12,758 bases of DNA from a virus. Below are positions 6,001 to 9,000 of the stretch, in pieces (position 1 is the first letter of the stretch; each line of letters starts with the position of its first letter). Location: the UHGV virus genome UHGV-0134735; one strand, 5' to 3'. The position numbers are program-made.

Positions 6001-9000
6001 ATAAAGTACACATCGTACTATTTAGCCATCAGCAGGACGCACTACTCACCAGGGCGGTGAATATACAACGATTCAAATATGAATCTACGGCGCTGACAAA
6101 GCGCAATAACCAAAGTGAACTTTGGGGTGTGGTGAAGCCAGCTAGTCACTGGCAAGTGCTTACCTACTGTTGAGCGGTGAAGCGCTCCCAACGCTAGCAA
6201 TAGCGTGGACGAGATGGGGAGCCGCGGGCGATAAGGCCGCCATAACGCGCACGTTGTCGCATGGAAAAATCACTGGGGTGCCGGTTATACCCCTCCGAAT
6301 GAGACTCAACAAGCTGGAGCTAGACTACCAGCCACCACACCACCAAAGTTCATCAGGAGGTCTATATGACACGCAGAACTCAGTTCAAAGGCAATTCACG
6401 TTCTCGTCGTCGTGAGCGTTTAAAGGCAAAGGCATTAGCTAACGGCGTACTGGCCCGCGAAGAAGCAATAAGTTCAGAAGTATTACACCGCCCTACTCTA
6501 AGCAGAGCGCAGATTCAGGCTAAAGGTACTCACGAAACGCCTGAGCGCATAGAAGACGCTAAGCCAATTAAGTTCATGGCACAGGACGTGATCTGGCAAC
6601 AGAAAGAATACAGACGCAATCTGGAGCGAGCGGCCATTGTGTACGCGAATGAGTTTGGACATAAGCAACCAGAAACTGGTGTATGTCTTCCAAACGTAGC
6701 CATTTACGCGGCAGGCTACCGGAAATCAAAACAACTGACAGCAAGATGACTTGTGTTGGTCGCCAGAAAATGAAATTAGGCAGTAAGCTACTGTATGAGG
6801 GGTGAGATATGCATAAATGTCAGTTCTGTGGATACATGTTTGAATCAAATGAAATGCAACGTATTTCGTTAAACCTTATCGGTAGGCCATACAACATTTG
6901 CCTAGGATGTAGCGAGAAATACAAAAACAAAGACATGTGGGACGACAATAAAAACGATATCGACTGGAATAAAGTGCCATGTATTGATGATAGTTAAAAA
7001 TAATTATGCCGCATAGTCGGCCTTCTTTTGGCATAAACAACAGAATAAACACTGCACTGTGTATTCATTCCAACGAGTGAATACACGGAGCAATGTCGCT
7101 CGTAACTAAACAGGAGCCGACTTGTTCTGATTATTGGAAATCTTCTTTGCCCTCCAGTGTGAGGGCCTTTTTATATGCATACCAATAACGCTTCACCAGA
7201 GGCATTTTCGTTATGCAATCAAACAGAAGGAGCATCCTATGCAACAGTTCGCTATTGCAGGGGCGGCATCGGTTCGCCCTTTCAACCCGATTTTATCGGT
7301 ACAGCATTCACGAAAAAATATTTTAACCGGAGCAGACTTTAAACAACCAAGAATGAAAAGTTTGCTCGAAAAGCTTTGGGATATTTTGAAACAACAAGGC
7401 CGTCCATGAGTTTTACAGATAACTGGTCAGACGAAGAATTCATTCGTCAGATGAAAGAATTAATCGGTAACGAAGGAGATATTCATGTCACTTGCAACCA
7501 CAGTGAAGGAGAGCAAGTTACAGAGGCGCATGTACACGCAGAAAGCTCTCTGGTATCGACATAATGGCGACCGCGAAGGAATGCGGGTATGCCTTAACTT
7601 GTCCCGAGTCGAAGTATTAAATCAGCGTTATTTCCTTGGGCCGTGTCCATTCTGAGAACAATCATATGAGCAAAGAATTTTACGCAAGACTGGCAGCTAT
7701 TCAGGAGAATCTGAACGCGCCAAAGAATCAGTACAACTCATTCGGTAAATATAAATACAGAAGCTGCGAAGACATTCTTGAAGGCGTTAAGCCGTTACTG
7801 AATGGCCTGTTTTTATCAATCAGCGATGAAGTTGTGTTGATTGGTGATCGGTATTACGTGAAAGCCACGGCAACTATTACCGATGGCGAAAACAGTCATA
7901 CGGCAACCGCCCTTGCACGAGAGGAAGAAAGCAAGAAAGGAATGGATTCTGCACAAGTTACTGGAGCTACAAGCTCTTATGCACGCAAGTATTGCCTCAA
8001 TGGTTTGTTCGGCATTGATGATGCGAAAGATGCAGATACAGACGAGCATAAACATCAGCAGAACGCAGCAGCAAAGCAATCAAAACCATCACCTACACCT
8101 GAACAGGTTCTAAAAGCATTCACTGACGCAGCATTGCAGAAAAACACCGTGGAAGAGCTTAAACAGGCGTTCGCCAAAGCGTGGAAGATGCTCGAAGGCA
8201 CACCGGAGCAGCAAAAAGCGCAGGACGTTTACAACATCAGACGAGACGAATTAGAAGGGGCGGCCGCTTAATGGCACATTCGATTACTGTAAGACTAAAC
8301 AAGCCCGCAAGAGAGTTTCAGGCCGGGGAAAATATCGGATTCAACATCCGTGCTGGAGTTCAGTATTACGATCGCCAGACAAAAAAGAAGGAATGGACAA
8401 ACTACAGCGCCGTTGTATTTGCCAAGCCGGGAGCGCAAGCGGATTACTACCGTAGTGTTCTTGTTGAAGGTGGCATTGTTGAAATTACCGGAGAAAACAT
8501 CAGGGTTGATATTTATCAGGGGCAAAATGGTCAATCAATCACTCTTGAATTACTGAATGCAAAGATTGGATTTGCAGCTTCAGGAAATGGCCCGCAGCAG
8601 CAAAGTAGTAACCAGCAGAACACTCCTGTATACGACGATTCCATCCCATTCTGATTTAGAAAAATAAGGATTTAATTATGCCAGCGCCTCTGTATGGTGC
8701 GGACGACGCGCGCCGCTGTTCCGGCAATTCCGTATCGGAGGTGCTGGATAAATTCAGAAAAAACTACGACCTGATAATGTCGCTACCGCAGGAAACGAAA
8801 GAGGAAAAGGAATTTCGCCATTGTATATGGCTTGCAGAGAAAGAAGAACGCGAGCGAATTTACCAGACATCAATCCGACCATTCCGCAAAGCCACATATA
8901 CCCACTTCCCTGAAATTGACCCGCGTCTGCGTAATTATCGATCACGCTATGGCGCTATCAGTAATGACTGAGGAATTTACCATGAGAGGACTTGCATACA

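What the first reader, a model, noticed from the sequence alone, without database searches (positions are those of the whole stretch)
6809..6997. Zinc-ribbon micro-protein at the ral position downstream of N
A 62-aa protein with two CxxC pairs is the first gene after N, where lambda and P22 carry ral (restriction alleviation). It has no similarity to Ral that I can confirm, so it is a candidate anti-restriction or other host-modulating factor.
Basis: inference. Interest (0 to 1): 0.45.

Follow-up and report, generated by a model that had tools for sequence, protein, structure and literature searches.

The report
Orphan zinc-finger gene in ral slot
A real, conserved 62-residue zinc-finger gene sits at exactly the spot where phage lambda carries its anti-restriction gene ral, but it resembles no characterised protein, so it is a reasonable but untested candidate for a new early host- or defence-modulating factor.

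Summary
Window 6809-6997 (+) encodes a 62-aa protein with CxxC at residues 4-7 and 31-34, directly after an N antiterminator (6366-6749) in a lambdoid early-left (pL) operon. It is a real gene: full-length match to PHROG 19863 (function unknown), identical in phage mEp213, and 10 DNA alleles of exactly 62 codons with saturated synonymous change and dN/dS of 0.06-0.19.

The "ral position" claim holds at nucleotide level. From 9 nt after its stop codon, the DNA is the same block (hairpin plus terminator-like site) that follows ral in lambda and gp45 in HK97. In 102 related loci that slot carries ral (35), gp45-like (16) or more than 10 other cassettes.

No family membership could be shown:
- **Ral:** hhalign probability 1%.
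- **Lar:** 15%.
- **ClpX zinc domain:** 30%.
- **Other libraries:** no Pfam family reached its cut-off, and PADLOC returned nothing.

My best reading is an early, N-co-transcribed protein-binding zinc finger acting on a host or defence factor. Ral-like restriction alleviation is one possibility at about 0.12. The function is untested, so interest is moderate.

The parts
5993..6021 (+). pL-like sigma-70 promoter (TTGACT, 17 nt spacer, TACTAT) that would drive N and the micro-gene
   Evidence: Consensus scan. It lies between the S24 repressor gene (5133-5867) and N. Function is inferred from position only.
6090..6104 (+). nutL boxB hairpin GCGCTGACAAAGCGC
   Evidence: Read. Identical to the string inside the annotated P22 nutL.
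6366..6749 (+). N antiterminator gene (HK97/P22 type, 127 aa)
   Evidence: Pfam PF25694 N_peptide E 2.1e-15. phrog_271 E 3.1e-39. 97% DNA identity to the HK97 N region.
6750..6805 (+). Non-coding relic of the 3' end of a lambda-type N gene (...TCVGRQKMKLGSKLLYEG, stop). It is the left edge of the cassette that brought in the micro-gene.
   Evidence: The same DNA forms the in-frame end of lambda-type and phage-21-type N genes in other loci that carry the micro-gene. In the window, identity starts at the stop codon of the resident N.
6797..6802 (+). Shine-Dalgarno GAGGGG, 6 nt upstream of the ATG
   Evidence: Sequence. Purine-rich SD motifs are also present upstream of divergent alleles.
6809..6997 (+). 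62-aa zinc-finger micro-protein gene (phrog_19863). Zn ligands are C4, C7, C31 and C34. Conserved W44-D45 ... N49-D50-I51-x-W53 motif.
   Evidence: AlphaFold2 model with mean pLDDT 86.6.
7006..7176 (+). Conserved right-hand boundary block shared with lambda (after ral) and HK97 (after gp45). It contains hairpin 7059-7086 and a terminator-like stem at 7149-7166 followed by a T run.
   Evidence: Alignment A8. Terminator scan. RNA fold z = -5.3. HK97 annotates a putative terminator here. The block is present in 2238 of 5426 complete E. coli genomes.
7239..7409 (+). cIII gene, the next pL-operon gene after the slot
   Evidence: phrog_550 'CIII' E 4.4e-22. 100% identical proteins are annotated as CIII in other phages.

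Best explanation
The ORF is a genuine accessory cassette gene of the lambdoid early-left (pL) operon. It encodes a zinc-stabilised, treble-clef-like mini-domain of 62 residues.

It lies between N and the first strong terminator-like block and has no predicted promoter of its own. It would therefore be transcribed together with N at the very start of infection or induction, and would be silent in the repressed prophage.

Its size, its lack of any catalytic motif and its conserved Trp/Asp-rich surface (W44-D45, N49-D50-I51-x-W53) suggest it acts stoichiometrically, by binding and neutralising or re-targeting a host protein. The most likely target is a component of a host defence system, making this a counter-defence gene that has replaced ral in this phage.

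**Shown:**
- It is a real gene under purifying selection.
- A zinc-finger fold is predicted.
- Its cassette position is identical to that of ral.
- It is an orphan family.

**Inferred:** early expression, protein binding, and a counter-defence role. The target is unknown.
For: **Real gene.** Omega is 0.06-0.19 over 10 alleles of constant length. It matches phrog_19863 full-length. The four Cys are invariant to 39% identity.

**Operon position.**
- pL-like promoter and P22-type nutL lie upstream.
- There is no credible promoter or terminator between N and the ORF.
- A terminator-like block follows it.

**Cassette logic.**
- It has the same right junction as lambda ral and HK97 gp45.
- In 33 loci it follows four or more unrelated N types, and its downstream neighbours vary.
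- In 102 loci the same slot carries ral 35 times.
- Annotated cargo in the slot includes Ral and an Nmad5-family putative nucleotide-modification protein.
- P22 gene 17, in the same interval, is annotated as allowing growth on a Fels-2 lysogen.

**Other points.**
- No Ral co-occurs with it in any of the 33 loci.
- Distant homologues lie in the N-cIII interval of other lambdoid phages and in a small-ORF array of an rV5/phi92-like virulent phage. Such arrays are typical places for takeover and anti-defence genes.
- Its G+C is 35% against 47% for the window.
Against: - There are no functional data and no homology to any characterised anti-defence protein. PADLOC returned nothing, no Pfam or NCBIfam family reached its cut-off, and no PDB or BFVD match was significant.
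- The slot also holds many cargo families of unknown and probably diverse function, some with membrane-like sequence. Guilt by position is therefore weak.
- Net charge varies across the family, with pI from 4.9 to 9.1, so no common electrostatic mimicry can be claimed.
- Early expression is inferred from sequence scans only.
Confidence: 0.45

Rival explanations
1. Ral/Lar-type restriction alleviation. The protein binds the methyltransferase core of a type I restriction-modification system. It either speeds up methylation of unmodified phage DNA or blocks restriction. This would make it a functional analogue of Ral without being a relative.
For: - It occupies the same cassette slot and the same right junction as ral.
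- It never co-occurs with Ral in 33 loci.
- Its size (62 aa) is close to Ral (66 aa) and Rac Lar (64 aa).
- Lar is also a CxxC...CxxC protein ending in a W-N-K motif, and the micro-protein has D-W-N-K at residues 52-55.
- One distant member gives a weak hit to TIGR03655 anti_R_Lar, E 0.017.
Against: - hhalign probability is 1.2% against Ral and about 15% against Lar, with only the zinc knuckles aligned.
- The Lar hit scores 15 bits against a 39.6-bit cut-off and sits among many equally weak zinc-finger hits.
- The Ral model has different secondary structure, although it is low confidence.
- One locus with a distant homologue also carries a Lar-family gene.
- Most cargo in the slot is not Ral-like.
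Confidence: 0.12
2. Host-physiology takeover unrelated to defence. One version is a stand-alone mimic or partner of the ClpX N-terminal zinc-binding domain, or of another protease or transcription component. It would alter turnover of unstable phage regulators such as O, N and cII, or alter host gene expression.
For: - The best profile-profile score of the three families tested is to the ClpX zinc-binding domain: 30% probability, aligning CxFCG ... G-x-x-x-x-I-C-x-x-C.
- A BFVD neighbour is annotated as a 63-aa phage 'Clp ATP-binding subunit'.
- The gene is always adjacent to N or inside the N-cIII regulatory interval.
- CsfB, a small treble-clef anti-sigma factor, is a structural neighbour.
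Against: - The Pfam zf-C4_ClpX hit appears in only 1 of 10 members, at E 0.061.
- The spacing between Cys pairs differs: 23 residues here against 18 in ClpX.
- The linkage to N is explained by recombination at the N 3' end.
Confidence: 0.15
3. Nucleic-acid-binding regulator of phage early gene expression. It might modulate antitermination, termination at the downstream terminator block, or translation of pL-operon genes.
For: - Small zinc fingers often bind nucleic acids.
- The N-terminal 41 residues are basic (pI 8.8).
- The gene sits next to N and just upstream of a conserved hairpin-plus-terminator block.
- Ribosomal protein eL24 is among the fold neighbours.
Against: - The gene is a rare, dispensable cassette: 4 distinct phages out of 50,697 phage records, 29 IMG/VR loci, and about 5 of 5426 E. 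coli genomes. The terminator block and N are common without it.
- The most conserved part after the zinc site is an acidic Trp/Asp motif, which is unsuited to nucleic-acid binding.
- It occurs with unrelated N types and in a virulent phage that has no N system.
Confidence: 0.08
4. Prophage-expressed moron that protects the lysogen, by superinfection exclusion or defence.
For: - The same interval houses sieB in lambda and P22.
- Its low G+C (35%) looks moron-like.
Against: - It is on the pL strand and directly follows N, with no promoter-like site upstream. sieB, by contrast, is on the opposite strand with its own promoter.
- It has no membrane segment.
- PADLOC returned nothing.
Confidence: 0.05

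Closest known systems
Ral (lambda/P22 restriction alleviation protein, Pfam PF11058)
   Same: - Same cassette slot in the pL operon, between N and the tL2-like terminator block.
- Identical right-hand junction DNA.
- Similar size (62 vs 66 aa), Cys-containing, and on the pL strand.
- Mutually exclusive with Ral in the loci examined.
   Different: - No sequence relationship (hhalign 1.2%).
- Different Cys pattern: C-x5-C-x2-C-x5-C in Ral against CxxC-x23-CxxC here.
- Different predicted secondary structure.
- Ral comes with sieB (and in lambda orf28) between it and N, whereas this gene abuts N.
- Function not tested.
Lar / RalR of the Rac prophage and the Lar family (PF14354, TIGR03655)
   Same: - About 60-aa phage protein with an N-terminal C-x-F-C-G knuckle and a second CxxC.
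- A Trp-Asn-Lys motif near the C-terminus.
- Located in lambdoid early-left operons.
   Different: - Scores are far below family thresholds, and the window protein gives no hit at all.
- hhalign gives about 15%, aligning only the knuckles.
- Different spacing between elements.
- Lar genes lie further downstream, near the recombination and ea genes, not next to N.
ClpX N-terminal zinc-binding domain (PF06689) and other treble-clef protein-binding fingers (FYVE, RING, CsfB/Gin)
   Same: - Predicted treble-clef topology with four Cys ligands.
- Local motif C-x-F-C-G ... G-x-x-x-x-I-C-x-x-C.
   Different: - Stand-alone protein with a unique conserved W-D...N-D-I-x-W C-terminal extension.
- Longer inter-knuckle hairpin.
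- No significant sequence or structure score, so this is a fold-class resemblance only.
PHROG 19863 (mEp213, HK225 and Louie hypothetical proteins)
   Same: Full-length member (E 5.6e-47). 100% identical to the mEp213 protein.
   Different: Nothing differs. The family itself has no assigned function, and I found no literature on it.

Membership tests
PHROG 19863 (uncharacterised phage protein family) | Full-length profile match | tested here: met
   E 5.6e-47, residues 1-62 on profile positions 1-62 of 62.
Ral (PF11058) | Sequence or profile similarity to the Ral family | tested here: not met
   No Pfam hit at E up to 10 for any of 10 family members. hhalign of the family profile against 17 Ral sequences gives probability 1.2% over 8 columns.
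Ral (PF11058) | Invariant Ral residues: C11, C17, C20, C26, and the W46...R49-T50-T51 helix | tested here: not met
   The Ral alignment (A4) and the micro-protein alignment (A3) show different Cys spacing. The micro-protein has no RTT motif.
Ral (PF11058) | Position on the pL strand between N and the terminator block upstream of cIII | tested here: met
   The DNA following the stop codon is shared with lambda and BE104 ral.
Ral (PF11058) | Alleviates type IA restriction and enhances modification through HsdM | not testable with these tools
   Needs plating and modification assays. The mechanism is summarised in PMC12707154.
Lar family (PF14354 / TIGR03655) | Profile match above the curated cut-off | tested here: not met
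   The window protein gives no hit. Only distant member P0012 hits TIGR03655, at E 0.017 and 15.4 bits against a 39.6-bit cut-off. One of ten members hits PF14354, at E 0.041.
Lar family (PF14354 / TIGR03655) | Profile-profile homology over the whole domain, including the C-terminal E-x-W-N-x-R motif | tested here: inconclusive
   hhalign gives 14.6% and 14.9% probability and aligns only the two knuckles. A W-N-K motif is present in both proteins but was not aligned.
ClpX zinc-binding domain (PF06689) | Profile match and structural superposition | tested here: inconclusive
ClpX zinc-binding domain (PF06689) | N-terminal domain of a ClpX AAA+ unfoldase | tested here: not met
   This is a stand-alone 62-aa protein.
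Treble-clef zinc finger (fold class) | Zinc knuckle, then a beta-hairpin, then a second CxxC at the N-terminus of a helix, with four conserved ligands | tested here: met
   AF2 model with pLDDT 86.6: strands 16-21 and 27-31, helix 32-40. Four Cys are invariant. All top structural neighbours are treble-clef domains. This is a prediction only, and zinc binding has not been measured.
Known anti-phage defence proteins (PADLOC-DB) | Match to any defence-system profile | tested here: not met
   No hit at E up to 1 for four family members.

The most novel reading that the evidence does not exclude
The 62-aa protein founds a new family of early phage counter-defence or host-takeover factors, unrelated in sequence to Ral or Lar. 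It is a zinc-finger inhibitor that has displaced ral at the same recombination-delimited slot. It neutralises a restriction or other immunity component, or a host protease or transcription factor such as ClpX, through its conserved W-D...N-D-I-x-W surface. More broadly, the N-to-tL2 interval of lambdoid phages would then be a readable anti-defence hotspot with a dozen or more uncharacterised cargo families.
Probability: 0.35. Interest if true: 0.55.

Novelty: new member of a known kind. Interest (0 to 1): 0.35.

Why it matters
If the protein inhibits a restriction or other defence system, it would add a new sequence family of very small zinc-dependent anti-defence proteins.

It would also validate a simple rule for finding more. 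The interval between N and the conserved terminator block is flanked by near-identical DNA in about 40% of complete E. coli genomes. It carries ral in roughly a third of cases and at least a dozen uncharacterised cassettes in the rest.

The gene is 100% identical in the cultivable phage mEp213, so the test is cheap.

If it has no defence-related phenotype, it remains one of many small phage proteins of unknown function.

Tried and rejected
**Library and database searches that returned nothing useful**
- Pfam, NCBIfam and PADLOC scans of the protein and of 10 family members gave only sub-threshold generic zinc-finger hits.
- A PDB sequence-profile search gave only C2H2 noise, E at least 0.18.
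- The afdb50 library was unavailable.
- Rfam on 5800-7700 returned nothing.
- An exhaustive HMMER search of 1.8 billion representatives found 10 hits. Six are credible family members (P0009, P0004, P0010, P0012, P0014, P0016). The other four are 852-1645-aa proteins whose sequences I did not retrieve, and I set them aside as likely repetitive zinc-finger proteins.

**Homology hypotheses rejected or left open**
- Homology to Ral is rejected.
- Homology to Lar was considered because of the C-x-F-C-G knuckle and the W-N-K motif. It is not supported beyond the zinc knuckles.
- Homology to the ClpX ZBD was considered and is inconclusive.

**Approaches that did not work**
- The Ral structure prediction, made to compare folds, was too low in confidence to use (pLDDT 59.8).
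- Scans of IMG/VR with single Ral and Lar proteins returned only near-identical copies, so they were useless for building diverse profiles.

**Literature**
- Searches for mEp213, PhiR12, lambdoid anti-defence hotspots and the accessory-gene screen (PMC12373910, including its supplements) turned up nothing on this protein.

**Other readings rejected**
- 'Chance ORF' is rejected by the dN/dS result.
- The alternative shorter start at M10, used in one NCBI annotation (P0002), is rejected because residues 1-9, including C4 and C7, are invariant in the closer family members, and both Cys are invariant throughout.

Full report
**Setting.** The window is the immunity and early region of a lambdoid prophage, and the early-left (pL) operon reads on the + strand. 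In order, it contains:
- an S24/HTH repressor gene at 5133-5867;
- a pL-like promoter at 5993-6021;
- a boxB hairpin at 6090-6104, identical to the one inside the annotated P22 nutL;
- an HK97/P22-type N gene at 6366-6749;
- the flagged ORF at 6809-6997;
- a conserved hairpin-plus-terminator block;
- cIII at 7239-7409, small arf/kil-region ORFs, and erf at 7636-8271;
- an SSB-like gene, abc2, Ead/Ea22-like genes, xis and int.

**Observation check.** The ORF is exactly as described. It has 62 codons, CxxC at residues 4-7 and 31-34, and a GAGGGG Shine-Dalgarno sequence 6 nt upstream of the ATG. Several results show it is not a chance ORF.
- It matches PHROG 19863 over its full length (E 5.6e-47).
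- It is 100% identical in phage mEp213, 98% in Louie and 68% in HK225.
- The family is very small: 8 clusters among 5.8 billion proteins, and 10 hits, six of them credible, among 1.8 billion representatives.
- It is tightly conserved. The four Cys are invariant down to 39% identity, and W44, D45, N49, D50, I51 and W53 are nearly so.
- Ten distinct DNA alleles from 33 loci all have 62 codons. Synonymous sites are saturated, dN is 0.07-0.25, and omega is 0.06-0.19 where it can be computed.

**Structure.** AlphaFold2 on a 7-sequence alignment gives mean pLDDT 86.6. The model has an N-terminal zinc knuckle, a beta-hairpin (16-21 and 27-31), the second CxxC at the start of helix 32-40, and an ordered C-terminal extension. 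This is a treble-clef arrangement. The structure searches return only generic treble-clef domains with insignificant scores:
- Foldseek against PDB: best E 0.12.
- Foldseek against BFVD: best E 0.01.

- *Gene order in the reference phages.* In lambda the order is N, sieB (opposite strand), orf28, ral, ea10, cIII. In P22 it is 24, sieB/esc (opposite strand), ral, orf78, orf87, 17, c3.
- *Right junction.* Alignment A8 shows that homology resumes 9 nt after the micro-gene's stop codon. From there the window DNA (about 7006-7176) matches the DNA that starts at the ral stop codon in lambda and in E. coli BE104. It also matches the DNA that follows gp45 in HK97.
- *Content of the block.* It holds a strong hairpin (7059-7086; fold z = -5.3) and a GC stem plus T run (7149-7176). 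From memory, it corresponds to the tL2 terminator cluster described between ral and bet in lambda.
- *Left junction.* This is also visible. Window 6750-6805 is a non-coding relic of the 3' end of a lambda-type N gene. In other loci the same DNA is the in-frame end of lambda-type or phage-21-type N genes, and the micro-gene starts 3 nt after their stop codon. In the window the crossover lies exactly at the stop codon of the resident HK97-type N.

**The slot is a cassette hotspot.**
- The flanking block occurs in 2238 of 5426 complete E. coli genomes.
- In 102 IMG/VR loci recovered with the hairpin sequence, the gene directly upstream is ral in 35, gp45-like in 16, P22-orf78-like in 9, and one of at least nine other families in 42.
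- Annotated cargo elsewhere includes an Nmad5-family putative nucleotide-modification protein.
- Across the 33 loci that carry the micro-gene, it follows at least four unrelated N or N-position proteins. It is followed by variable neighbours: gp45-like, orf78-like, a membrane protein, other unknowns, or cIII directly.
- None of these 33 loci carries a Ral homologue. Ral is found in 120 phage records against 6 for this gene.

**Relationship to known families.** No membership could be demonstrated, so the family is an orphan. No paper in the searchable library mentions it.

| Family compared | hhalign probability | What aligned |
|---|---|---|
| Ral (17 sequences) | 1.2% | 8 columns |
| Lar (two alignments, one including Rac Lar/RalR) | about 15% | the zinc knuckles only |
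| ClpX zinc-binding domain | 30% | 30 columns |

- The single weak TIGR03655 (Lar) hit belongs to a distant member. It scores 15 bits against a 39.6-bit cut-off and sits among many equally weak zinc-finger hits.
- PADLOC returned nothing.
- The Ral structure model was too poor for a fold comparison.

**Distant relatives.**
- P0016 (39% identical) lies in the N-cIII interval of other lambdoid prophages, directly after an orf78-like gene.
- P0012 (41% identical) lies in a dense array of small ORFs on a contig related to rV5/phi92-like virulent myoviruses.
- P0014 fuses the finger to a small protein of phiEcoM-GJ1-like phages.
- So the domain travels among early or accessory gene sets of both temperate and virulent enterobacterial phages.

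**Most likely mechanism.** The following facts bear on it:
- The gene is on the pL transcript and abuts N.
- It has no predicted promoter, and no credible terminator lies before it.
- It precedes the first terminator-like block.

From these I infer that it is made together with N as an immediate-early product and is silent in the lysogen. A 7.4-kDa zinc finger without catalytic motifs, carrying a conserved Trp/Asp surface, most plausibly works by binding a host protein.

The slot holds ral most often, and in P22 the same interval holds gene 17, which is annotated as allowing growth on a Fels-2 lysogen. I therefore rank a counter-defence role first (confidence 0.45 for the general model). A Ral-like action on type I systems is one specific version (0.12). 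The remaining rivals are:
- ClpX or another host-takeover target: 0.15
- nucleic-acid-binding regulator: 0.08
- lysogen-protecting moron: 0.05

The diversity of cargo in the slot, and the variable charge of family members (pI 4.9-9.1), are the main cautions.

**Verdict.** The feature is a new, uncharacterised member of a known kind, namely early accessory cassette genes of lambdoid phages. It is of moderate interest because it is cheap to test in mEp213 and because the slot itself looks like a readable hotspot.

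Noticed in passing
window 6750-6805: Non-coding relic of the 3' end of a lambda-type N gene (...TCVGRQKMKLGSKLLYEG, stop), lying directly after the stop codon of the resident HK97/P22-type N. 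It marks a recombination joint exactly at the N stop codon. The same DNA is the in-frame end of lambda-type and 21-type N genes in other loci.
   Followed up: yes
window 7006-7176: Conserved block (hairpin 7059-7086 plus a terminator-like stem and T run at 7149-7176) shared with lambda (after ral) and HK97 (after gp45). It is present in 2238 of 5426 complete E. coli genomes. It acts as the right border of a cassette hotspot with at least a dozen cargo families: ral 35, gp45-like 16, orf78-like 9 and others 42 of 102 loci.
   Followed up: yes
window 387-559 and 10149-10321: 173-nt inverted repeat, 79% complementary. It encodes paralogous C-terminal domains (LP.PHAHLIWIQAGHAPDDYWDDVAVS.SEKDKCCDGSDRYPV...) in ORF 374-751 (- strand, phrog_343) and in the Ead/Ea22-like ORF 9894-10355 (+ strand). 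It could serve as a substrate for inversion or recombination between the two arms of the prophage.
   Followed up: partly
residue 58 of the protein (window 6980-6982); L006 1576-1761; P0016: A fifth Cys (P57-C58) is invariant in the E. coli-type alleles. It is His in the Morganella allele and in the distant homologue P0016, and it is absent in P0012. A Cys/His swap hints at an extra metal ligand or an intermolecular site. This is unexplained.
   Followed up: no
L013, L015-L017, L033-L035 and L006 (downstream of the micro-gene); L039-L043 (upstream of P0016): A P22-orf78-like protein (PF27050 Phage_P22_Y8K6 / phrog_1273, function unknown) is a recurrent immediate neighbour of the zinc-finger family, on either side. 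In P22 the same family follows ral. This could be a functional pairing or simply shared residence in the slot.
   Followed up: partly
P0014 (132 aa; metagenomic): A natural fusion of a small protein found in phiEcoM-GJ1-like phages (residues 1-69) with the zinc-finger domain (residues 72-132).
   Followed up: partly
window 1131-1334 (-) and 9685-9897 (+): Two more small Cys-rich ORFs. The 67-aa one is phrog_6308 (unknown function). The 70-aa one (CRCG...C...C pattern) has no Pfam or PHROG hit at all.
   Followed up: partly
L003 (E. coli ECONIH4) 4060-6576: In this prophage the identical micro-gene was left unannotated by PGAP. It is followed by a gp45-like gene and then an IS1634-like ISSpu7 transposase inserted just downstream of the slot.
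   Followed up: no
L126 2734-2928 (E. coli K-12 Rac prophage): The classical restriction-alleviation gene lar is annotated in RefSeq as 'endodeoxyribonuclease toxin RalR' with an antisense antitoxin sRNA, RalA. This is a reminder that small zinc-ribbon phage proteins with an 'anti-restriction' label can have other activities.
   Followed up: no
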